Below are positions 47,011-63,105 of a stretch of 64,000 bases of DNA, in pieces (the stretch's first letter is position 1; every line of letters begins with the position of its first letter). The notes beneath the pieces were generated by a model. It made no database searches. It was given only the letters and a program-made list of their open reading frames with translations, and was not told the origin of the DNA. This DNA is from Mucilaginibacter sp. Its GTDB lineage: Bacteria > Bacteroidota > Bacteroidia > Sphingobacteriales > Sphingobacteriaceae. The position numbers and the translations under genes are program-made. The stretch covers positions 2,632 through 66,631 of the forward strand of contig NZ_JBCECK010000012.1 of NCBI RefSeq assembly GCF_039207105.1. Reading direction: 5' to 3'.

Positions 47011-47481
47011 TTATAAATGTGCTCTTAACATCCAGGCCATTTTTTCATGCGTTTCCATCAGTCCGGTAACATAATCACTTGTACCTACATCCTTCATTTT
47101 TTCTGCAAATACAGTGATCAATCCGCGTAAACGAATAATGATGCTTTCGTGATCTCCGAGCAATTCTTTTATAAAGCCGGCGCTGTCATTTTTTTCCCGG
47201 AGTTGCTCGGTAAGGTGTGTTAAGTTTAAGAAAGATTGCAAAGTTGCAGGCGCATAATGCCCCAGTGAACGAATGCGCTCGGCAACGCCATCCATGATCT
47301 CATCAAGCTCATTATATTGTGATTCAAAAAATACATGGACAGTATGGAAATTGGGCCCTTCAATGTTCCAATGGGCATTTCTTGTTTTGGTGTATAGTAC
47401 ATATTCATCCGCAAGGATGTGATTTAGTTCATGAGCTACTTCGCTCAGTAATTCTTGTGGTATACCAATATTTGTTTTCAT
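47011..47481 (-). CDS. dps: Dps ferritin-like DNA protection protein
   Basis: HWNIEGPNF..VH..FE..Y...D..AERIRSLG; EKMAWML. Confidence 0.95.
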   Translation of the reverse strand: MKTNIGIPQELLSEVAHELNHILADEYVLYTKTRNAHWNIEGPNFHTVHVFFESQYNELDEIMDGVAERIRSLGHYAPATLQSFLNLTHLTEQLREKNDSAGFIKELLGDHESIIIRLRGLITVFAEKMKDVGTSDYVTGLMETHEKMAWMLRAHL

Positions 47482-48564: not shown

Positions 48565-50046
48565 TTAGCTTATTTTATGGCTGACATCTACATTCAGTCC
48601 TTTTGCAACGGCCATTCCCAGGTTCATATCTGCTCTGAACCAATGACATATCTGGCGGTTAATGATCTCCTCACGTTTTGGACCTGTAATACCGCTCATG
48701 GCAGTGACGATATTGTGGATGAGTCTTTCTTTGGCTTGTTCATCCATTAGCCTGAATAAATTTCCTGGTTGTGAGTAATGATCATTTTCGCCCTCAGCAT
48801 TACGGTCATACCAGTCAGCAACTGAGTTGTCAAGCGGTAAAGCCGGCTCTCCATAGCTGGAATCGGTGATGATGTTATCAAAGCTGTTCGGAGCATAATT
48901 AGGCGCACCGCCCTGGTTTCCGTCAACACGCATCTGTCCGTCACGTTCATAATTATTGACCATGAACGGGCAGCGGTTAACCGGAATTTGCTCATAATTT
49001 GCACCTAAACGGTAACGCTGGGCATCTGGATAGGATAAGATGCGCCCTTGCAGCATTTTATCAGGAGAAAACCCAATACCGTTCACAATACGAGCTGGTG
49101 CGAAAGCTGATTGCTCAACGTGGGCAAAATAATTATCGGCATTTTCATTAAGCTCCAGAGTACCCACGTCAATAAGGGGGAAGTCTTGATGAGGCCATGC
49201 CTTGGTTAGGTCAAAAGGATTGATATGATAGGTTTTTGCTTCGCTTTCTGTCATCACCTGGATTTTGAATTTCCATTTAGGAAAATCTCCTCTGTCAATA
49301 GCCGAAATAAGATCTTGCTGCGCGAAGTCAGGGTTTTCTCCACGCATTTGCTGCGCTTCTTCATTGTTAAAGTTTTTGATACCCTGCATGGTCAAAAAAT
49401 GATATTTTACCCAAACACGTTCGTTATTCGCGTTAATAAAGGAGTAAGTATGACTACCAAAGCCGTGCATATGTCGATGTCCGTAAGGTGTACCACGATC
49501 ACTCATAACAATTAATACTTGATGAAGTGTTTCCGGATTAAGTGAGAAAAAATCCCAGGTCATCGTCGGATTTTTACAGTTGGTATAAGGGTCACGTTTC
49601 TGTGTGTGAATAAAGTCACTGAATTTTTTAGGATCTTTAAGAAAAAAAACCGGGGTGTTGTTACCTACTATATCCAGGTTACCATCTTCCGTATAAAACT
49701 TGATCGCGAACCCGTGCGGATCACGTTCGGTATCAGCACTTCCTTTTTCACCTGCTACCAAAGAAAAACGCATAAATATTCTTGTTTGTTTGCCAATGGT
49801 ATCAAAAACTTTTGCTTTTGTATAGGCTGTAATGTCGTTTGTAACGGTAAAAGTTCCGTATGCGCCCGAGCCTTTGGCATGTACTACTCGTTCAGGAATT
49901 CTTTCCCTGTTGAAATGAGCCATTTTTTCGTGTAGTATGAAATCTTGTATTAATACTGGTCCGCGCGGGCCGGCAGTCATTGAGTTTTCATTCACATGCG
50001 AGGTGTAAGGGATACCTGAAGCGGTTGTTAGTTTTTTAGTTTCCAT
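48565..50046 (-). CDS. katA: Monofunctional small-subunit heme catalase
   Basis: [13 protein letters not shown]; VGNNTPVFF; [12 protein letters not shown]. Confidence 0.95.
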
Positions 50047-53893: not shown

Positions 53894-55186
53894 TCATAGC
53901 CCGTCATCAGGCGATACACGTTTTAGAATATACGACAGTAAGACTGCAAACAAAACGTAGCCCGCAAAAATAAAATACCCGGGTTGCAATGAGGTTCCGT
54001 TAGTTGTGACCACATTCAGGAAGTTATTGTGGATATTCAGGCTGGCAAGCTGGCTTTTCAAGATGCCGTTCAAGCCGATATAGGTCATAAGCATACCGAC
54101 GATCATCACATCAGACATGTCCCATTTGCCCAATTCAAAAGTGAGATACCGAACTGTGCTGTTACGGGCCATCTTTTTGGGGCTGAGCACATAGACTCCT
54201 TTGGCGATGAGTCGCAAAAGGGGCAGTATTAGTATAAATAATAAAATAAGTATCCCAACTGCAATGGCGTCTGGTTTGGGCTGCCCGATCAACGTTTTAA
54301 CGATGCCAAGTATACTTTTGCTTTGATAAAATAGCACTTGGTTTTTAAATTCCACCTTGCCATTCAGTAATTCCAGATCCAGGGATTGGATGCGGGCATC
54401 CACTTCGATTACCGGTAAAAGGCTGCCCGTGATCAGCATTACGAACGCAAACAACAAGGAAAAAATGAATAGCGGTGTTTGTAAATGCACTTTCTTGTGC
54501 AGGGTAAACCAAAACAGCAGCGCAACCAGTACGCAACCCAGCATAATACACACATATTGAATGAGCTGCGTTTTAAGTGTGTCCAGCTTTTGATTGATAC
54601 GCTGGTTAAAGGCCTCCGGGTTTGATATCTTGTATTTTTTATACACATATTTGGTCACCTTGTAATTAGCCACACTGACGCTGTCATAGATCTGCCTTGT
54701 AAGCTGGTGTACTTTGCTGCCCGCAATGTTTTTCAGACGGGCTTCACTTTCGGGGCTACTAATCTTAGCCACAATGGTCTTGGCGAAGGGCCTCACCTGT
54801 GCCTGTAGTTCAGCTGAATCTACAAGTGTATTAAAGGCTAACTTTTTCAGCTTAGCACCAAGTCCTTTTTGCGGTTGGTTGATCTCAGCTACCGTTTTAC
54901 TCACCAGCCCATGCATTTCCTTTTCCACCATGATCAGGAGGTCTTTCTGCTGCGCTTTTGTGATATGGTAATCCTGTATTTGGTCGCTCAGCACAGCTGT
55001 GATACGGTCGCGCCATTGATCAATGGAGAACAACCCGAAAGTAACGCTGTTGGCCAGGCTGTAATCTTCTTTAACCTGCTCACGCTCGGCGGAGATGCTG
55101 GCCAGCCGGTAACCTGCATAAGCAGCTCCGGCCAGTAATAAACTAAGCCCGGCAAGCATGATTATATTTGATATCGTATATTTCAT
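53894..55186 (-). CDS. pqiA: PqiA-domain membrane protein with a large periplasmic helical region
   Basis: ILILPLLR; GKWDMSDV; LQPGY; about 6 TM segments. Confidence 0.75.
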   Translation of the reverse strand: MKYTISNIIMLAGLSLLLAGAAYAGYRLASISAEREQVKEDYSLANSVTFGLFSIDQWRDRITAVLSDQIQDYHITKAQQKDLLIMVEKEMHGLVSKTVAEINQPQKGLGAKLKKLAFNTLVDSAELQAQVRPFAKTIVAKISSPESEARLKNIAGSKVHQLTRQIYDSVSVANYKVTKYVYKKYKISNPEAFNQRINQKLDTLKTQLIQYVCIMLGCVLVALLFWFTLHKKVHLQTPLFIFSLLFAFVMLITGSLLPVIEVDARIQSLDLELLNGKVEFKNQVLFYQSKSILGIVKTLIGQPKPDAIAVGILILLFILILPLLRLIAKGVYVLSPKKMARNSTVRYLTFELGKWDMSDVMIVGMLMTYIGLNGILKSQLASLNIHNNFLNVVTTNGTSLQPGYFIFAGYVLFAVLLSYILKRVSPDDGL

Positions 55187-56488
55187 TTAGTGGGTATCAT
55201 GCGGGGTGATATATTTAAGAATAGTTGATAAGATCAACCCATACAGTACAAAACTGATAAAAACGATATAGCCCGGCTGTAACGCCGTATTATTGGTAGT
55301 GATCAGCGTTAACTCCTGGCCACGGATATTTAGTAAAGCAAGCTGTTTATCCAAAAGACCATTCAAACCGATATAGGTCATTAGTATAGCGATCACGATC
55401 ACATCGGCCATGCTCCATTTGCCTGATTGAAAAGCAAAATATTTGATGAAACGGTTTTCGGCCAGTTTCTTTTTACTGAGTAAATGAATGCCGGTGGAGC
55501 TGAGCTTAGTGACCGGGAACAGAATGCTGAAGCAAAGTATAAGTATGCCCACGGCAATCGAATCAAGAGCAGGCTGTTTTACCAATACCTCCACTACACC
55601 CAGAATACTCTTGCTTTCGTAAAACAGCACCTGGTCTTTAAATGTCACATGTTCACCCAGCAATACAAAATCCAGTGCTTTGATGCGACAGTCAACCTCG
55701 ATCATTGAAGCGCTCAAACCAACCGCGAGCAGGATAAACGCGAACATTAGCGACATGATAAACAACGTACCATGCAGCTCGGTACGCTTGCGCAAAATCC
55801 ACCATAAAGCCAGCACAGCGATAATACAGGCGAGCATTAAAAAACAAAAACGGTACATACTTACTCGAATTTCTTCTAACGTACGGTCAAGTTTCTGGTT
55901 TAACTCCTCTTTTGAATGAACCTGGTATTTTTTAAACATACTGTTAAACAGCGCATGATTGGCCTGCAAAGTGCTGTCTACACTTTCTGTATGCTGCAGT
56001 TCGGTAAACTTCCCCAGGGCCAAGTTACTCAACTTGGACTTTTGGTGGGGGTTGTCGGCCTTAGCGATGATGGAGCGGGCAAAAGCGGGAACCTGTGCCT
56101 TAACCTTATCAGTTTTGACAAAGGATTTGATAGCAAACTTTCGGATCTTTCCGACCAGACTTTTCGGTTTCTTCTCAACCATTGCCTCGGCCTTGTTGAT
56201 CAGGGCGTAAAGTACCGACTCAACCTCAGTTTGCAATTCCTGTTTCTGTTTGGAGGTCAATTTGAAATGTTTTACCTGCCGGTTCACGATGCCTGCAACC
56301 TCATCCCGCCATTGTTCTACAGACAAAAGACCATAAGAAATATTATTGACCGTGGAATGGTCAAGCTTGATCATTTCTTGTTGCTTAGATAGCTCGTGCA
56401 GTCTGTAACTAAAAAAGCCTTCCAGGCCCAGCAAAACAGCAAGACCAAGAATCAAAAGTATTTTCGGGAGATATTGCTTATTACTCAA
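55187..56488 (-). CDS. pqiA: PqiA-domain membrane protein (paralog, abuts the next gene)
   Basis: FSILFPVTK; GKWSMADV; LQPGY. Confidence 0.78.
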   Translation of the reverse strand: MSNKQYLPKILLILGLAVLLGLEGFFSYRLHELSKQQEMIKLDHSTVNNISYGLLSVEQWRDEVAGIVNRQVKHFKLTSKQKQELQTEVESVLYALINKAEAMVEKKPKSLVGKIRKFAIKSFVKTDKVKAQVPAFARSIIAKADNPHQKSKLSNLALGKFTELQHTESVDSTLQANHALFNSMFKKYQVHSKEELNQKLDRTLEEIRVSMYRFCFLMLACIIAVLALWWILRKRTELHGTLFIMSLMFAFILLAVGLSASMIEVDCRIKALDFVLLGEHVTFKDQVLFYESKSILGVVEVLVKQPALDSIAVGILILCFSILFPVTKLSSTGIHLLSKKKLAENRFIKYFAFQSGKWSMADVIVIAILMTYIGLNGLLDKQLALLNIRGQELTLITTNNTALQPGYIVFISFVLYGLILSTILKYITPHDTH

Positions 56489-56913: not shown

Positions 56914-58083
56914 TTATCGCAGTAGGTTCATCAATAATTCGTCTTTCAATTGCCCGGCCTTTGCAGGCAGATCGCCGGGAAATAAGGTGCCGATATTGGT
57001 TGAAATAAAAACATAGGTTTTAGCGGCCGGGATATATAATAAGATACAACCTGCCCCAATGCCGCCGCCGGAATGCCCATAAGCCTGAATGCCGCCTGCT
57101 TCAAAAAACTCGAGGCCTAACCCGTAAACCGGTTTGCCGTCAGCACCGTTTACCCATTGGAGCATTTCTTTAAGCGAGGCTTTGGAAACCAGTTCTCCTT
57201 CCGTTCACCCTTTTAAAAATTTCACCGCGTCAACCGGTGTGCAAACTATTCCATCATCGCCGATATAAGATGCTACATTAGCACGTTGAATAGCTGAAAT
57301 ATTCGCGGGCTTACCTGTATTTAATACGTCCCAATAGGAGTCGGTCAGATTAGGGTAATGCAGGTAGTCAGGATCATTGCGGTAAAAGGTATTGCGGAGC
57401 CCAAGCTTTTCAAAAATGTGTTTCGCTATATAAGCAGCATGATCTCCGGTAATGGCATCGGCTATTACCGCAAGCAACTCATAATTGGTGTTGCAGTAAA
57501 CATGTTTTGAACCGGGTGCAAACATCGGTTCCTTACCTTTAATAGTGCCGATAACAAATTCGGTTGTCAGTTTGTGTGCCGGGTGCTCCATCACATAAGC
57601 AACAAAACCCGGATCGGTCGAGTATTCCGGTATTCCCGAAGTATGGTTCAGCAGCATGCGCACAGTGATAGCAGCCGCATTTTTTACTATGCCGGTGTAC
57701 TTTGCAGGCAAATACTTTTTGATAGGAGCGTCCAGATTTATCTTTCCCGCTTCCTTAAGCTGCATAATGGCTACTGCCATATAAGTTTTTGAAACGCTTT
57801 GCAGGTATTGCAGATCACAGTTTTCCATTGGCCTCTTCCGTTCTATGTTTGCATAACCCTCGGCACCGGCCCACCAACCATCCTTTTCAGAATAGACTGC
57901 CATGACGATGCCGGGTAATCCGGTTTTGACATATCTTTTCATAATGTCGTGCAGGCTATCTGATTTTGCATAGTTGTTATTAATTGGCACGACGATGCGG
58001 CAATTGTGGATGGTTTTGTTCTGTGCATTCAGGGTAATGATGTTCAAAATAACAGTAACCCAGGTTAGTAAAATCCTTTTCAT
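56914..58083 (-). pseudogene. Beta-lactamase-fold serine hydrolase interrupted by an in-frame TGA (57205-57207)
   Basis: Signal peptide MKRILL; SVSK; YCN; reading continues in frame KG*TEGELVSKASLKEMLQW to YGHSGG. Confidence 0.85.
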
Positions 58084-58101
58084 TTTGATAATTTTTTGAC
58101 G

Positions 58102-58222
58102 CAAAATTATTTTGGACACCTGCCGATATCAAGGATGAAGAATGTGTTTCCCGGTGAATTGTAGCAGGTTTTCCGCTGAAATGAAGTTGGGGTTGACGAG
58201 CTGTAATGAATTTGCCTTTGAA
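58102..58222 (-). promoter_or_regulatory. Serine hydrolase promoter with candidate LytTR repeats
   Basis: -7 TAATTTTG (58102-09), -33 CTTG 20 nt upstream; TTCA-core repeats at about 19-22 nt spacing directly upstream. Confidence 0.5.
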
Positions 58223-59044
58223 TTAAACCTGTTCAAACCAGTTTTTAAAGTCGGGTGCTTTTGTTCGGCTAACCTGTATTGAGGAGGGTAAATAATCGGA
58301 TCCGGAAATGCTGACGCTCAGCTTCCCGTTTTCGATCTTTGTATAGCCCCCAACGATGCTGCGTTGAACAATGTACTGCCTGTTCAACCTGAAAAATAGT
58401 TCCGGTGGTAACTGTTGCTCAATCCGGTCCAGCGACTTATCCAGCAAATACCTTTTTTCAGCGGTCGTAATCACCGCGGTGTAGTCATCATCGGCAAAAA
58501 ACGCTGCGATAGAATCAAACGCCAGCACCAGATGTTGGCGGCCATCTTTTACAGTAAAGCCTTCTGTCCTTACTTGTTTATCCGCTATCCTGAGCCGTTC
58601 CAACTGCCGCATGGCATGGTAATAATATAATGCAATGTAAATGCCGTTCAGTACAAAAAACCAGATCAGGAAAATAAACAAATCGTACCGGTAAAAGCTT
58701 GCCGGAACCGGTGCTTGCGTTGCTATCAGGTTTGCCAGTTCTGTTAAGATAATGATAACAACCAGGCCGGTTAATGATGTAAGTATGAGTTGTAGGGTGA
58801 TGCGTTTTAAGGGTCCGGATGCGTAAGGCATCTTTTTATCAAGGTATAGGATCACCAGCCTGAAGCACCACCATGCCGCGTAGCCATCCACAGTATCGAT
58901 AAGAAAAGTTATAAGGGTATGGGTATTAAAACTGATGTTGGTATAAGTGAGATAATAATTAAGTGCGTTGACCACAGGAATAAGCACCAGGAAAAAAGGG
59001 ACATCATGGTACCGGATCGGTTCTTCCTGTTTTTTTGATATCAT
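58223..59044 (-). CDS. Membrane-anchored LytTR regulator (4 TM + LytTR, no receiver domain)
   Basis: Four hydrophobic helices, then IAAFFADDDYT, SLDRIEQQLP..FFRLNRQYIV, VSR.KAPDFKNW. Confidence 0.85.
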   Translation of the reverse strand: MISKKQEEPIRYHDVPFFLVLIPVVNALNYYLTYTNISFNTHTLITFLIDTVDGYAAWWCFRLVILYLDKKMPYASGPLKRITLQLILTSLTGLVVIIILTELANLIATQAPVPASFYRYDLFIFLIWFFVLNGIYIALYYYHAMRQLERLRIADKQVRTEGFTVKDGRQHLVLAFDSIAAFFADDDYTAVITTAEKRYLLDKSLDRIEQQLPPELFFRLNRQYIVQRSIVGGYTKIENGKLSVSISGSDYLPSSIQVSRTKAPDFKNWFEQV

Positions 59045-59445
59045 GGCGAGCTTTACACTGAAATATTATTAAAGGGCTATATACAGAGGTGAATAATCGT
59101 TGACGAAAAAAAGCTTTAAGAATGTCTGGAAATCAGTAAAGCTTTTCTGATAAAGATAAATAATTTACAGGATAACGCTATCTGTAGAAAAATTGCTCAA
59201 AATACTTAGTCAATTCGGAGTAGGGTCGATATTCCACTTTCGCTTCCCGCCTAATGAAAAGGCGACTCAGCGGAGTTGGAGAATTATTGATATATGATCA
59301 ATTTAATTTTAAAGTAATGGGTATAAAATATTCTAAAACCGCACAGGTATATGTTCGGTTCTGTTACGATTTGTAATTCGGGATATTGTCTATGTTTTTA
59401 CATATCAGTAAGTTGTAAATTTGGAATAAGGATTGAGCATATAAG

Positions 59446-62400
59446 ATGATGAGAACCTATACATTTCATATTAACGCCTACGACTTTGCATTTTTTGGAG
59501 CTATTTTTCTTGGGCTGGGCCTTGCGCTGCTTTTGTGGTTTGTCCCAAAAATGAACAGGGCCGCAAACCGGTTCCTGGCTTTGGCGCTTATGGTGGTTGT
59601 GTTGTATCTGGCTCATATACTGGCTATGGATATCGGGCTTGATGGTTATATCGCTCGCTGGAATTGGTTGCCATTGCCACTCTCGCTCGCTTTTGGTCCG
59701 TTGATTTTCTTTTATGTACTCAAGCTAACCCGGCCTGCATATCAATACCGGCTGAAGGATTTATTGCACTTTATTCCGTTGTTGTTTGAATTAGGTGTTC
59801 ACGGTTTGGAGATCAGGGAAAGTGGGAGAGCGGGATCGGGCACTTATACTAAGATGCTCTTTCAGCAGGTGAACCTTATTATACAGGCGTTTGCGTTGAT
59901 CTCGGTCATGATATACCTGTATTTTTGTTACGTACTTATCGAACGTTTTTACCGGCGTATAGAATTTAAAAATAATGACAGGTGCCGCTACGAAATGAAA
60001 TGGTTACATCACTTGCTAATTGTTTTCGGCTTTTTGTGGCTGTTGTGGCTACTCGTGGTAACCGTTGACTATTTTTATTACCACGATCAATCGGGTGCGC
60101 AAGCCTATTATCCACTATATCTACTTTTGGCGATAGTCTCGATCCGGACGGCTGCTATCGCATTTCTGAGGCCGGATGCCGGTTTAACTTCCGTTGCCCA
60201 ACCTGTTTTTAAGCCGGCGCCGCCAGAAGAGTCAAAGCGAAAAGGTACCTGGCTGAAGGGCATACTAAAGACTAACCAGTACTATCTGGATCCGGATCTT
60301 AGTTTACGCTCCCTGTCTGAAAAACTTGAACTGCACCCCAATGAACTGTCGCGGATATTGAATACTATACTTAAAAAAAGCTTTAACGACTTCATCAATG
60401 AATACCGCGTGGCAGCGGTTACCCAAAAAATGCTTAACCCGGCTTATGATCATTTAACCTTGCTGGGTATCGCGTTTGAATCGGGCTTTAATTCTAAAAC
60501 TACTTTTAACCGTACTTTCAAACAGTTGACCGGTAAAACCCCTGTCGAATATAAAAATGCTCTAAAAAAAGAGGGCCCATATTATAATTTGGAACGTCCG
60601 ACCCGTTTTGCGACGGTATTTTCGTATCAGCAAACGACTCCCAGGTGGAGCGATGTGAAATTAAATCGCAAAACAATGATCAAAAATTACTTCAAAATAG
60701 CCTGGCGTAACCTGTTGCGCAATAAAAGCTATGCCGCTATCAATGTTACCGGATTGGCTATAGGTATCGCGGCCTGCCTGCTGATATTCCTGGTTATTCA
60801 GTTTGAAACAAGTTTTGATAGTTTCCATGCCAATAGGGACCGGATCTATCGTATTGTTACGGTAAATAGTGGCCCTGATGGTGTTCATGCCGGATCGGGA
60901 ACACCATTGCCACTGGGGGAGGGATTAAAGCTTGATATTCCGCAAATCAAGCAGCTATCCAATATTATGCTGAATGGCGGTTCGCATTTTTCTATTCCGG
61001 CTGGGAGCGATGGTGCTGTGGTGAAAAAATTTAAAGAAGATCTGGCTTACTATGCTGACCCTGGTTTCTTTCAGATTTTTAATTTCAAATGGCTCGCAGG
61101 AGATAAACTTACTGCCTTATCCGAACCCAAAACGGTGGTATTAACCCGTGACGAGGCTGATAAGTTTTTTGGCGATTGGCGTACGGCAATGGGGAAAATA
61201 GTGCGTTACGAAAATAAGCGCGATTTGAAAGTGACCGGTATATTAGAGAATATGCCGGTAAATACCGATTTTCCGATGAAAGTGGCTATCTCCTGGCTCA
61301 CACTTATTGAAAAGGATGGGGATTTGAGCGGTAATGCCCAGGATTGGGTAAGTACTTTCGGCGACAGGAACTGCTATGTTGTTTTACCCCCGGGCCTCAG
61401 CGAAAAGCAGATGAACACCGAGTTGGGTTCCTTAGCCAAAAAACATATTCCGGCACCTTATAATAAAAACCAGACCTATCGATTACAGCCATTGAAAGAT
61501 ATGCATTATACCACCGATGTGGATGTTTACAGTGGGCACCCGTTTAGTAAACAGCTGATTAGGGTGATCAGCTTAATTGGCTTGTTCCTGCTGGTGATAG
61601 GCTGCGTTAACTTTATCAATCTGGCAACTGCGCAGGCTGTAAATCGCTCCAAGGAGGTGGGAATACGCAAGGTGCTGGGCAGTAACCGGTATCAGCTCCT
61701 GCTGCAATTTATTACCGAAACATTGATTATTACGCTGTTTGCTGTTGTACTGGCTTCTGTGCTGGCGCTTATCGCGTTGCCTATGCTGAACAGCCTGCTG
61801 GATGTGCGGTTGAGCAGCGGTTTCCTGGCAGATCCGGTAGTGATATTGTTTTTAGCGGGTGTAGTTATCGGTGTTACTTTTTTTGCCGGGTTTTATCCTG
61901 CGCTGGTTTTATCCGGATTTAACCCGATAGCGGCACTGCGAAATAAGATCAATGCCGGTAGGGCAAGCGGAATTTCATTGCGCAGGGTATTAGTGGTGAC
62001 CCAGTTCTGCATAGCCCAGTTCCTGGTTATCGGAACGCTGGTATTAATATACCAGATGAATTATTTTAAGAACAAATCCCTCGGCTTTAATAAAGATGCG
62101 GTAATTACAGTACCTTTTCCACGTGATAGTGCCGGTAGGGCGCGGGTTAGCGCCTTGAAAGACCAGCTATTGCAGCAGCCGGGAATAAAAGCGGTTAGCA
62201 CCAGTTTATATGCGCCGTCTGATAATGGTGGTTGGTTCAGCGATTTTAAATTTAACAATTCAGATAAGCAGGTTGATTTTGGGGCTTGCCTGAAATGGGC
62301 CGATGTCGATTATTTCAGGTTATACGATATTCAGTTTTTAGCCGGTGGGTTATACCCTAAATCAGACACGATATCCGGCTATGTGGTGAACGAGACCCTG

Positions 62401-63105
62401 ATCCATAAACTGGGTATTACCGATCCGAAACAGGCCATAGGTAAAAACATCATGCTCTGGAATAATAAGAACCTGAGGGCCGAAATCACGGGCGTGGTGA
62501 AGGATTTCAATACCAGATCGCTTCGTGGAGAAGTACCGCCGGTATTGATGGCGCCGTGGAAAGAGCAGTATGCCAAGTTGAATATAAAGGTTCGTCCCCA
62601 AAACCTGCGGCAAACTATGGCAGGTGTTGAAAGCTTGTGGAACAAAACTTACCCCGAAGGGGTGTATGAATACCAGTTTTTGGATAAAACCATAGCTCAT
62701 TTTTATAACAGTGAAGAGCAGCTATCCACGCTGTTCAAAATATTCGCCGGTATAGCCATCTTCATTTCCTGCCTTGGATTGTACGGCCTGGTGTCATTTA
62801 TGGCGGTACAGCGCACCAAAGAAGTTGGTATACGTAAAACATTAGGGGCCTCTGTGGGGCATATCGTGTACTTGTTTTCCAAAGAATTTACAGTGCTTAT
62901 CGTCATCGCGTTTGCGATATCAGCTCCGGTTGGCTATTACTTTATGCACAAATGGCTACAGGATTTTACCTACAGGATCACTATCGGGCCTGATATATTT
63001 ATCCTGTCCATATTAGCATCGGTCATCATTGCCTGGGCAAGCGTAGGTTATAAAGCGGTGAGGGCGGCGTTGGCTAACCCTGTAAAGAGTTTAAGGAGCG
63101 AATAA
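59446..63105 (+). CDS. Fusion of a 7TM sensor-AraC regulator (aa 1-~375) with a MacB/FtsX-type ABC permease (aa 411-1219)
   Basis: YYLDPDLSL..LS; SFNDFINEYRV; IAFESGFNSKTTFNRTFK..TG.TP; then MIKNYFKIAWRNLL, NFINLATA...RSKEVGIRKVLG, RTKEVGIRKTLGAS, ANPVKSLRSE; single open frame. Confidence 0.9.
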   Translation: MMRTYTFHINAYDFAFFGAIFLGLGLALLLWFVPKMNRAANRFLALALMVVVLYLAHILAMDIGLDGYIARWNWLPLPLSLAFGPLIFFYVLKLTRPAYQYRLKDLLHFIPLLFELGVHGLEIRESGRAGSGTYTKMLFQQVNLIIQAFALISVMIYLYFCYVLIERFYRRIEFKNNDRCRYEMKWLHHLLIVFGFLWLLWLLVVTVDYFYYHDQSGAQAYYPLYLLLAIVSIRTAAIAFLRPDAGLTSVAQPVFKPAPPEESKRKGTWLKGILKTNQYYLDPDLSLRSLSEKLELHPNELSRILNTILKKSFNDFINEYRVAAVTQKMLNPAYDHLTLLGIAFESGFNSKTTFNRTFKQLTGKTPVEYKNALKKEGPYYNLERPTRFATVFSYQQTTPRWSDVKLNRKTMIKNYFKIAWRNLLRNKSYAAINVTGLAIGIAACLLIFLVIQFETSFDSFHANRDRIYRIVTVNSGPDGVHAGSGTPLPLGEGLKLDIPQIKQLSNIMLNGGSHFSIPAGSDGAVVKKFKEDLAYYADPGFFQIFNFKWLAGDKLTALSEPKTVVLTRDEADKFFGDWRTAMGKIVRYENKRDLKVTGILENMPVNTDFPMKVAISWLTLIEKDGDLSGNAQDWVSTFGDRNCYVVLPPGLSEKQMNTELGSLAKKHIPAPYNKNQTYRLQPLKDMHYTTDVDVYSGHPFSKQLIRVISLIGLFLLVIGCVNFINLATAQAVNRSKEVGIRKVLGSNRYQLLLQFITETLIITLFAVVLASVLALIALPMLNSLLDVRLSSGFLADPVVILFLAGVVIGVTFFAGFYPALVLSGFNPIAALRNKINAGRASGISLRRVLVVTQFCIAQFLVIGTLVLIYQMNYFKNKSLGFNKDAVITVPFPRDSAGRARVSALKDQLLQQPGIKAVSTSLYAPSDNGGWFSDFKFNNSDKQVDFGACLKWADVDYFRLYDIQFLAGGLYPKSDTISGYVVNETLIHKLGITDPKQAIGKNIMLWNNKNLRAEITGVVKDFNTRSLRGEVPPVLMAPWKEQYAKLNIKVRPQNLRQTMAGVESLWNKTYPEGVYEYQFLDKTIAHFYNSEEQLSTLFKIFAGIAIFISCLGLYGLVSFMAVQRTKEVGIRKTLGASVGHIVYLFSKEFTVLIVIAFAISAPVGYYFMHKWLQDFTYRITIGPDIFILSILASVIIAWASVGYKAVRAALANPVKSLRSE

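What the first reader, a model, noticed from the sequence alone, without database searches (positions are those of the whole stretch)
59446..63105. One-polypeptide sensor-regulator-transporter: 7TM-AraC fused to a MacB/FtsX permease
Seen: one uninterrupted 1219-aa frame joins seven hydrophobic segments, a complete AraC double HTH, a 35-aa linker and a full permease beginning MIKNYFKIAWRNL. No ABC ATPase gene is adjacent. Known: membrane-bound AraC regulators and MacB-type permeases are normally separate genes. Inference: the fusion is topologically compatible, since the AraC domain and the permease N-terminus are both cytoplasmic. It may couple transport or mechanotransmission directly to DNA binding, a flux-sensing one-component system akin to BceAB-BceS but in a single chain. 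I do not know of a characterised example.
Basis: partly seen in the sequence, partly recalled or inferred. Interest (0 to 1): 0.8.

Follow-up and report, generated by a model that had tools for sequence, protein, structure and literature searches.

The report
Conserved receptor-AraC-permease fusion gene family
One gene really does encode a seven-helix membrane receptor, a DNA-binding switch and a transporter-like membrane machine in a single protein; the fusion is old, conserved in hundreds of soil-bacterium genes and unstudied, and the DNA of its joint is unusually constrained.

Summary
The 1219-aa frame at 59446-63105 is real. It encodes a 7-TM receptor-like module, an AraC double HTH (280-375), a 35-aa tether (376-410) and an 8-TM duplicated MacB/FtsX permease (411-1219). 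It is not a strain-specific stop loss. The same genome has two more fused paralogs, 111 of 200 species genomes of the genus (Mucilaginibacter by homolog names) carry the junction, up to 17 or more copies each, and at least 930 non-redundant public proteins have it. It is rare outside a few Sphingobacteriaceae genera. The fused N-modules and linkers have one origin, but permease modules have since been lost or swapped at invariant Met411. Both permease halves keep the ATPase-coupling helices, yet no ATPase lies on any fused-gene contig, so a shared trans ATPase is likely. New here: the linker is the deepest minimum of synonymous divergence in the gene in two independent ortholog groups, although its amino acids are relaxed and it is predicted disordered. 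Some DNA or RNA element is embedded there, possibly an internal promoter or start for a permease-only product. The best reading is a membrane-integrated one-component regulator coupled to a transporter-like sensor; that mechanism is inferred, not shown. No paper describing the architecture was found.

The parts
59416..59423 (+). Probable -7 promoter box TAAATTTG (Bacteroidetes TAnnTTTG type), 22 nt upstream of the start codon
   Evidence: Exact motif at this position. The surrounding block GTTGTAAATTTGGAAC is conserved in most of 16 orthologs. The paralog group has an equivalent TAGGTTTG/TAAGTTTG box. Promoter function is inferred from the published consensus (my own knowledge), not tested.
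59446..60180 (+). N-terminal 7-TM receptor-like module (residues 1-245), predicted N-terminus outside and C-terminus inside
   Evidence: Seven confident helices in AlphaFold2. Positive-inside charge pattern. Best structural matches are GPCR-type 7TM bundles (Z 15.9, rmsd 3.5 A, 224 aligned), only modestly above the helical-bundle background. No Pfam family.
60181..60282 (+). Juxtamembrane segment: flexible stretch (246-259) plus the helix preceding the HTH (261-277)
   Evidence: pLDDT below 50 at 245-259, helix at 261-277.
60283..60570 (+). AraC/XylS-type DNA-binding domain with two helix-turn-helix units (residues 280-375)
   Evidence: Pfam HTH_18 and HTH_AraC above cut-off. PDB 3oou by sequence and by structure at Z 13.5, rmsd 2.2 A. 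Among the most conserved parts of the protein (entropy 0.67; pN/pS 0.13).
60571..60675 (+). 35-residue linker (376-410): fixed length, predicted disordered, with conserved P378, Y380, W401, K405, N407 and R408
   Evidence: Essentially gapless in 116 fused homologs. pLDDT 29-40 alone and in the full-length context. pN/pS about 0.55.
60565..60669 (+). Embedded nucleotide-level element: unique minimum of synonymous divergence (codons 374-408)
   Evidence: pS 0.377 against 0.648 gene-wide, with the next-lowest window at 0.547 and z = -6.3. Replicated in the independent C71 ortholog group: 0.172 against 0.442. Site-level Fisher p = 0.004 and 0.0002. Both groups keep the same codons at the P-x-Y-N-L motif. 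Its nature is unresolved.
60676..60678 (+). Met411 codon: start of the permease module, invariant ATG, and the joint at which modules separate or swap
   Evidence: Met in 116 of 116 fused homologs and in all 33 orthologs examined at the DNA level. It is homologous to the start codon of the unfused paralogs. Tree incongruence places module exchange at this joint.
60676..61950 (+). Permease half 1 (411-835): connecting helix, TM1, periplasmic domain 1, TM2, coupling helix CH1, TM3, TM4, CH2
   Evidence: MacB_PCD 431-660 and FtsX 710-827. Aligned to MacB 5gko, including the CH1 motif. CH1 and CH2 are at least 95% conserved in the family. Secondary structure.
61951..63105 (+). Permease half 2 (836-1219): TM5, periplasmic domain 2, TM6, CH1', TM7, TM8, CH2', then the stop codon
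   Evidence: Second MacB_PCD and FtsX stretches. ADOP model aligned to the C-terminus. Second CH1 motif and the C-terminal NPVKSLRSE are conserved. Secondary structure.

Best explanation
This is a genuine, anciently fused and selectively maintained gene. It encodes a membrane-integrated one-component regulator with 15 TM helices. A 7-TM receptor-like module places an AraC-type DNA-binding domain on the cytoplasmic face. A flexible 35-residue tether joins that domain to the connecting helix of an 8-TM duplicated MacB/FtsX (type VII ABC) permease with two periplasmic domains. This is the topological position that the ATPase domain and its 'skirting loop' occupy in MacB. SHOWN: the architecture; its conservation (at least 930 non-redundant proteins, more than half of the species sampled in the genus); a single origin of the N-module plus linker; purifying selection on every part; retention of both ATPase-coupling helices in both permease halves; and absence of an ATPase in cis. 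INFERRED: the permease half works with a shared MacB-type ATPase encoded elsewhere (about 5 such ATPases against about 33 permease paralogs in this genome). The protein binds DNA while anchored in the membrane. Conformational changes of the membrane and periplasmic modules, driven by ligand binding or by the ATPase-powered mechanotransmission cycle, modulate the AraC domain, so that gene expression follows what the transporter-like module encounters. The targets are unknown; no conserved neighbour exists, so the unit is self-contained. An additional DNA or RNA element is embedded in the linker codons. Its most economical reading is a retained promoter or translation-initiation region that also allows the permease to be made alone from Met411.
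For: - Frame and domains.
- Conservation: three fused paralogs at 35-41% identity in one genome, all open. The junction is present in 111 of 200 species genomes of the genus, 5 of 37 genera of the family and 3 of 179 genera in an even draw of the phylum. 930 clusters reach E<=1e-60 on the junction region.
- Linker: fixed length with conserved residues; pN/pS 0.13 in the AraC domain, 0.08 in TM1 and 0.55 in the linker.
- Structure: 7 TM helices plus AraC, then 8 TM helices plus 2 periplasmic domains, with a disordered linker.
- ATPase coupling: CH1 and CH2 are at least 95% conserved and align to MacB CH1, with definitions from PMC8277102. No ATPase lies on the fused-gene contigs or within 10 kb in two other genera. 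There are five MacB-type ATPases in the genome, two of them beside unfused paralogs.
- Origin: fused N-modules are monophyletic at 95/96.
- Embedded element.
- Precedents for sensing through a type VII ABC permease and for DNA binding at the membrane: PMC4513084, PMC9169098, PMC7888679.
Against: - No experiment or expression data exist for any family member, and no RNA run holds the gene.
- Nothing shows that the AraC domain binds DNA, that it responds to the permease, or which ATPase (if any) partners it.
- The linker is predicted disordered, so tight allosteric coupling through it is not obvious.
- Unfused permeases nested among fused ones show that the permease works without the regulator, so the fusion may serve co-expression rather than signal coupling.
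- No operator or regulon could be identified, and neighbours are not conserved.
Confidence: 0.55

Rival explanations
1. Two-in-one gene. The fusion mainly packages a regulator and a permease together, and the linker codons double as an internal promoter, leader or translation start. Cells would then make both the full-length protein and a free 809-aa permease from Met411, with little or no allosteric coupling between the AraC domain and the permease.
For: - The linker is the deepest synonymous-divergence minimum in two independent ortholog groups, while its amino acids are relaxed and it is predicted disordered.
- Met411 is invariant and homologous to the start codon of about 30 unfused paralogs.
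- Linker length is fixed, as promoter geometry would require.
- Two boxes matching the TAnnTTTG consensus at 5 of 6 positions sit at conserved codon positions. One resembles the gene's own promoter core, sharing the 10-mer AATTTGGAAC.
- Unfused permeases are the sisters of fused ones, so the permease functions alone.
Against: - There is no exact TAnnTTTG in the linker and no well-spaced -33 TTG.
- The linker DNA is unlike the AT-rich leaders of unfused paralogs.
- Third codon positions before Met411 show no A bias.
- If only a free permease were needed, selection would not keep the frame open in more than 900 proteins over a fixed 35 codons.
Confidence: 0.3
2. Assembly artefact or strain-specific stop loss. 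Two normally separate genes, a 7TM-AraC regulator and a permease, are read as one only in this metagenome bin.
For: The window comes from a metagenome bin. Independently built contigs break at 60653-60671, at a paralog-conserved sequence. A few relatives carry broken or truncated copies: G018, G024:C15, and the stand-alone 381-aa form in G010.
Against: Colinear full-length fused orthologs at 68-80% identity occur in many genomes, including closed single-contig ones. There are two further fused paralogs in the same genome and 930 fused clusters in public data. The linker is homologous, fixed in length and under purifying selection.
Confidence: 0.02
3. The AraC-like domain no longer binds DNA. 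It serves as a cytoplasmic structural or regulatory domain of the membrane complex, for example occupying the ATPase docking side of permease half 1 or bridging the 7-TM and permease modules.
For: The domain is tethered to the membrane on both sides, which restricts access to DNA. It sits where the NBD sits in MacB. It is very uniform across paralogs (entropy 0.67), which is unusual if each paralog had its own operator.
Against: Both HTH units score as canonical AraC/XylS, fold confidently and superpose on a solved AraC-type domain at rmsd 2.2 A. Stand-alone 7TM-AraC relatives exist without any permease. Membrane-anchored AraC-output regulators are common in this phylum (hybrid two-component systems; my own knowledge, plus PDB 12aw). 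Both CH1 motifs are conserved, which argues that both ATPase docking sites are still in use.
Confidence: 0.08

Closest known systems
BceAB-BceRS antimicrobial-peptide sensing and resistance modules (Firmicutes)
   Same: An FtsX-domain (type VII ABC) permease serves as the sensor. Its transport activity, not just ligand concentration, is converted into a transcriptional response (flux sensing; PMC4513084, PMC9169098, PMC10314905).
   Different: Bce uses four separate proteins: ATPase, permease, histidine kinase and response regulator. BceB has 10 TM helices and one extracellular domain. Here there is no kinase or receiver, the DNA-binding domain is covalently joined to an 8-TM permease with two periplasmic domains, an extra 7-TM module is present, and the ATPase is not encoded nearby.
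MacB / LolCDE type VII ABC transporters
   Same: The 4-TM unit with a large periplasmic domain between TM1 and TM2; the major coupling helix in the TM2-TM3 loop and a minor one after TM4; an N-terminal amphipathic connecting helix (PMC8277102; alignment to 5gko).
   Different: MacB carries its ATPase at the N-terminus and works as a homodimer. Here two permease units are fused in one chain, there is no ATPase in cis, and an AraC domain with a 35-aa tether sits where MacB has the NBD and skirting loop.
ADOP family duplicated 'orphan' permeases (NCBIfam TIGR03434)
   Same: The same duplicated MacB_PCD-FtsX-MacB_PCD-FtsX layout of about 800 aa, large paralog families, and usually no adjacent ATPase.
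   Different: The score of 309 bits is below the family cut-off of 622, so it is a related but distinct clade. ADOP proteins lack the N-terminal 7TM-AraC extension.
Membrane-integrated one-component regulators (CadC/ToxR type) with a transporter co-sensor (LysP-CadC)
   Same: A transcription factor that binds DNA while anchored in the membrane, with a transporter feeding it information (PMC7888679, PMC6320335).
   Different: CadC and ToxR have an N-terminal winged-helix domain, one TM helix and a periplasmic sensor, and LysP is a separate protein. Here the DNA-binding domain is AraC-type, lies in the middle of the chain and is anchored on both sides by polytopic modules.
Stand-alone 7TM-AraC membrane regulators and hybrid two-component systems of Bacteroidota
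   Same: The same 7-TM plus AraC module occurs as proteins of 375-410 aa in relatives and in many AlphaFold DB clusters. Hybrid two-component systems likewise end in a membrane-anchored AraC output (my own knowledge; PDB 12aw matched).
   Different: None of these carries a permease. All are uncharacterised as far as I could find. The fused N-modules form their own clade.

Membership tests
AraC/XylS transcription regulators | C-terminal-type DNA-binding domain of about 100 aa with two helix-turn-helix units | tested here: met
   Pfam HTH_18 at 52 bits (cut-off 33.6) and HTH_AraC at 32 bits (cut-off 26.6). Seven helices at 261-376 with pLDDT of about 85-90. Superposes on 3oou at Z 13.5, rmsd 2.2 A, 105 aligned.
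AraC/XylS transcription regulators | Sequence-specific DNA binding and transcriptional control | not testable with these tools
   No operator or regulon could be derived, and neighbours are not conserved.
MacB/FtsX (type VII ABC) permeases | 4-TM unit with a large periplasmic domain between TM1 and TM2 | tested here: met
   MacB_PCD and FtsX are each found twice above cut-off. The AlphaFold2 model shows TM1, a beta-rich domain, then TM2-4, twice over.
MacB/FtsX (type VII ABC) permeases | Coupling helices for the ATPase: CH1 in the TM2-TM3 loop and CH2 after TM4 | tested here: met
   The motif R-x-K-E-V-G-I-R-K-x-L-G in both halves aligns to MacB RTQEIGVRMAVGA. NP-x-x-(A/S)-L-R follows TM4 and TM8. 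All are at least 95% conserved in 116 homologs. Definitions come from PMC8277102.
MacB/FtsX (type VII ABC) permeases | A cognate ABC ATPase, fused or encoded in the same operon | tested here: not met
   No PF00005 hit on contigs C12, C71 or C4, nor within 10 kb of orthologs in two other genomes. A trans partner cannot be tested here.
ADOP duplicated permease (TIGR03434) | Score above the curated subfamily cut-off | tested here: not met
   309.4 bits against a cut-off of 622.3, although the alignment covers model positions 6-803 of 803.
Bce-type sensing transporter modules | 10-TM BceB-type permease with a single extracellular domain, paired with an intramembrane-sensing histidine kinase and a response regulator | tested here: not met
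   There are 8 permease TM helices and two periplasmic domains and no kinase or receiver domain in the protein. The neighbouring LytTR gene is not conserved with the paralogs or with the Olivibacter ortholog.
ToxR/CadC-type membrane-integrated one-component regulators | N-terminal winged-helix DNA-binding domain, a single TM helix and a periplasmic sensor | tested here: not met
   The DNA-binding domain is AraC-type, lies internally and is flanked by 7 and 8 TM helices. It works like this class only in being membrane-anchored.
GPCR-like / bacterial 7TM receptor modules | Seven-helix bundle with N-terminus outside and C-terminus inside, homologous to a described 7TM receptor family | tested here: inconclusive
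   The topology and helix count fit. The top 47 PDB matches are GPCRs at Z 13.5-15.9, but helical bundles reach about 13 by arrangement alone. No Pfam 7TM family matches.

The most novel reading that the evidence does not exclude
The 105-nt linker is dual-coding. Besides the protein tether, it holds a functional DNA element: an internal promoter and leader, perhaps with an operator bound by the protein's own AraC domain, which is made and inserted into the membrane right next to its own gene. One locus would then form a self-contained circuit. The full-length receptor-regulator-permease senses, and it then drives production of a free permease from invariant Met411. The same joint would serve as the breakpoint at which regulator and permease modules are shuffled among the dozens of paralogs.
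Probability: 0.25. Interest if true: 0.8.

Novelty: new variant of a known kind. Interest (0 to 1): 0.62.

Why it matters
Soil Bacteroidota and Acidobacteria carry dozens of 'orphan' duplicated MacB-type permeases per genome, and their substrates, ATPase partners and regulation are unknown. This family ties such a permease covalently to a transcription factor, which is a natural 'Rosetta stone'. It says these permeases are linked to gene regulation, and it offers a tractable handle: find the AraC operator and regulon, and the function of the permeases should follow. Mechanistically, it would be the most compact form yet of transporter-coupled signalling. Bce-type systems need four proteins, whereas here sensor, transducer and DNA-binding output are one chain anchored by 15 TM helices. 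The constrained linker DNA, replicated in two ortholog groups, is a concrete and testable case of a regulatory element hidden inside an inter-domain linker of a fused gene.

Tried and rejected
- Overlapping ORF in the linker: rejected. All five other frames carry stops in every ortholog.
- Conserved RNA structure: not supported. Consensus fold is -3.8 kcal/mol and single-sequence z-scores run from -0.6 to -2.2. There is no Rfam match at E<=1 apart from one chance lncRNA hit.
- Intrinsic terminator in the linker: one weak 5-bp hairpin at 60603-60616, at chance frequency and absent from the second ortholog group.
- Sigma-70-type promoter scan: nothing in the linker, and the scan does not suit this phylum.
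- Exact TAnnTTTG in the linker: none.
- Linker as a copy of the leaders of unfused paralogs: no similarity.
- Conserved neighbour or operon partner: none. The LytTR gene next to the window copy is not found beside the paralogs or the Olivibacter ortholog.
- Stand-alone 7TM-AraC genes next to permeases (a split form): not found in the four loci examined.
- Pfam family for the 7-TM module or the linker: none, even at E<=10.
- Complex prediction of AraC plus linker (262-410) against the permease (411-1219): no verdict, score 0.00 with controls not run. This is no evidence either way.
- Expression: no RNA holder is listed for the gene.
- Source-run contigs: no listed piece bridges 60653-60671, which proves nothing.
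- Literature: four searches found no paper on the fused architecture.
- Failed calls: searches (bad reference; placeholder sequence) carry no information.


Full report
OBSERVATION. The window holds one uninterrupted frame at 59446..63105 (+) of 1219 codons. Pfam finds HTH_18 (290-371), HTH_AraC, two MacB_PCD stretches and two FtsX stretches, all above their curated cut-offs. NCBIfam aligns residues 417-1219 end to end with the ADOP duplicated-permease model, though below its cut-off at 309 against 622 bits. Hydropathy shows six strong hydrophobic segments and one weak one in residues 1-245, with a positive-inside pattern that fits N-terminus out and C-terminus in. AlphaFold2 gives seven confident helices there. 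The linker is residues 376-410, and the permease starts at Met411 (nt 60676-60678) with MIKNYFKIAWRNL. No ABC ATPase lies on the 69-kb contig.

NOT AN ARTEFACT OR A ONE-OFF. The same genome (6.0 Mb, 325 contigs, a leaf-litter metagenome bin) has two more fused paralogs with open frames: C71 (1239 aa, 41% identical) and C4 (1159 aa). It also has about 30 unfused 800-aa permease paralogs, many in tandem arrays. Scoring only the junction region against public proteins, the best 120 hits all carry HTH_18, MacB_PCD and FtsX in about 1200 aa. They are named Mucilaginibacter, Olivibacter, Parapedobacter or Pseudosphingobacterium. At E<=1e-60, which only proteins matching both sides can reach, 930 clusters at 90% identity remain. 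In species-representative genomes the junction is found in 111 of 200 genomes of the genus, with up to 17 or more copies each. The junction is also found in 5 of 37 genera of the family, but in only 3 of 179 genera in an even draw of 400 genomes from the phylum. A few copies are decayed (G018, G024:C15), and one close relative is a stand-alone 381-aa 7TM-AraC (G010). Contigs built independently from the source run match the window exactly where they cover it. They break at 60653-60671, where paralog-conserved sequence begins. Fused orthologs in closed genomes cover that gap in the argument.

ANATOMY AND SELECTION. In 116 fused homologs the linker is essentially gapless, so its length is fixed at 35 residues. 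P378, Y380, W401, K405, N407 and R408 are each at least 90% conserved, and Met411 is invariant. Among 14 orthologs, pN/pS is 0.13 in the AraC domain, 0.08 around TM1, 0.18 in the periplasmic domain and about 0.55 in the linker. The linker is therefore constrained but relaxed. A near-full-length model (residues 11-1210; pLDDT 72.7) shows 7 + 8 TM helices and two beta-rich periplasmic domains, with a linker of pLDDT 29-40 that reads as a flexible tether. The 7-TM module superposes best on GPCR-type bundles (Z 15.9, rmsd 3.5 A, 224 residues aligned; the top 47 rows are all GPCRs). That is only modestly above what helical bundles reach by arrangement alone, so I call it receptor-like and do not claim homology. 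AlphaFold DB shows the same 7TM-AraC module in many uncharacterised membrane 'HTH araC/xylS' proteins.

THE PERMEASE STILL LOOKS ATPase-COUPLED. In MacB the major coupling helix lies in the TM2-TM3 loop and a minor one follows TM4. The ATPase joins TM1 through a skirting loop and an amphipathic connecting helix (PMC8277102). Both halves of this protein keep the CH1 motif, aligned to MacB RTQEIGVRMAVGA, and the CH2 motif, each at least 95% conserved across the family. The genome has about five MacB/LolD-type ATPases, two of them beside unfused paralogs, against about 33 permeases. A shared ATPase supplied in trans is the likely arrangement; this is inference. The AraC domain plus tether occupies the position that the ATPase domain plus skirting loop has in MacB.

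ORIGIN. All N-modules from fused proteins form one clade (95/96), with the G010 stand-alone gene as sister, and the linkers are plainly homologous. The junction therefore arose once. The permease modules tell a different story. In a 36-row tree, 'fused' needs at least 4 changes, and each fused gene of this genome has an unfused sister: C12 with C19 (99/93), C71 with C126 (100/100), C4 with C94 (100/100). The two trees also disagree on how the fused genes relate to each other. Modules have thus been lost or swapped repeatedly at the Met411 joint. It follows that the permease half can function without the regulator.

AN UNEXPECTED NUCLEOTIDE-LEVEL CONSTRAINT. Across 15 orthologs (68-80% identical), a sliding 35-codon Nei-Gojobori scan has one deep minimum of synonymous divergence, exactly on the linker. 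pS is 0.377 at codons 374-408, against 0.648 gene-wide and 0.547 for the next-lowest non-overlapping window (z = -6.3). Individual codons are frozen: Val391 is GTA in 14 of 14 sequences, Ala389 GCG in 10 of 10, Ser393 TCG in 9 of 9 and Arg377 CGA in 11 of 11. The C71 paralog's own ortholog group (19 sequences) replicates the result, with 0.172 against 0.442 gene-wide and 0.295 for the next lowest. Codons with a fixed amino acid are fixed at the DNA level far more often in the linker than elsewhere (p = 0.004 and 0.0002). The two groups are only about 41% identical as proteins, yet they use the same codons at the P-x-Y-N-L motif and share a TAAT(A/T)T(T/C)G-like box 33 nt further on. I excluded an overlapping ORF. 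I found no convincing RNA structure or Rfam family, no general terminator and no likeness to the leaders of unfused paralogs. The genes' own promoters carry perfect TAnnTTTG boxes: 59416-59423 in the window, conserved in orthologs, with an equivalent box in the second group. The linker boxes match that consensus at only 5 of 6 positions and lack a well-spaced -33 element, although one shares the 10-mer AATTTGGAAC with the gene's own promoter core. An internal promoter, leader or start for a permease-only product is therefore the most economical reading. It would also explain the invariant Met411 and the fixed linker length. It remains unproven.

MECHANISM. The best-supported reading (confidence 0.55) is a membrane-integrated one-component regulator. 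Its AraC domain is held at the membrane between a 7-TM receptor-like module and a transporter-like sensor that works with a trans ATPase, and conformational changes of the membrane and periplasmic parts set its DNA-binding output. The main rival (0.30) is that the fusion chiefly co-packages regulator and permease, and that the linker's hidden element lets the permease be made separately. The two readings are not mutually exclusive. A non-DNA-binding structural role for the AraC domain (0.08) and an artefact (0.02) are unlikely.

COMPARISON AND NOVELTY. It works most like Bce-type flux-sensing modules (PMC4513084, PMC9169098, PMC10314905) and like membrane-anchored regulators with transporter co-sensors such as CadC-LysP (PMC7888679, PMC6320335). 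It fails the defining features of both families, having no kinase or receiver, no winged helix and no single-TM layout. It is a MacB/FtsX-type permease by fold and coupling helices, but it lacks a cis ATPase and falls below the ADOP cut-off. Automatic annotation already labels some members as 'permease subunit/AraC-like DNA-binding protein', so the architecture is visible in databases. Four literature searches found no description or characterisation of it. I rate it a new variant of a known kind: lineage-restricted, abundant there, and with an additional unexplained feature in its linker DNA.

Noticed in passing
G000 contigs C126, C94, C215 and C120 (for example L009 and L004); not in the window: The short intergenic leaders inside tandem arrays of unfused permease paralogs are built from repeated TTTAGRRTTT-like units. 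20 of the 212 genome-wide matches fall in the 5.8 kb of the 29 permease leaders, and 9 leaders have at least one. This could be a shared regulatory element or a stop-rich spacer.
   Followed up: partly
window 56914-58119 (-): A beta-lactamase-family (PF00144) gene appears split. One 304-aa ORF (57205-58119) covers profile positions 3-231, and a separate 83-aa ORF (56914-57165) covers positions 261-312. This suggests a frameshift or stop, or an assembly error.
   Followed up: no
window 58223-59044 (-): The divergent neighbour is a 273-aa protein with a C-terminal LytTR DNA-binding domain and no receiver domain detected. LytS-type kinases and a LytTR response regulator also lie 2-5 kb upstream of the M. 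kameinonensis ortholog, but not near the paralogs or the Olivibacter ortholog. The synteny is weak and possibly coincidental.
   Followed up: partly
window 59446-59451 versus orthologs L044-L058: The window gene starts with ATG ATG, whereas most orthologs have a TTG start at the homologous position (reading LKTYTFHIN). The 5' end is otherwise conserved.
   Followed up: partly
L029 (G018:C1:4464000-4474000) and L030 (G024:C15:738000-748000): Decayed copies of fused genes. G018 has the frame broken inside the AraC region and again near the permease start. G024:C15 is interrupted about 170 residues into the permease. The family turns over by pseudogenisation as well as duplication.
   Followed up: partly
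window 53894-56488 (-): Two tandem genes of about 430 aa, each with a PqiA-like domain, sit close to catalase (48565-50046) and a Dps/ferritin-like gene (47011-47481). This may be an oxidative or envelope-stress neighbourhood.
   Followed up: no
window 60672-60714: In the source run's assembly graph, several short contigs with different upstream sequence converge on the conserved permease start (loose end AAAAAACCTCTG at 60672). This shows how paralog-conserved sequence fragments assemblies at exactly this joint.
   Followed up: no
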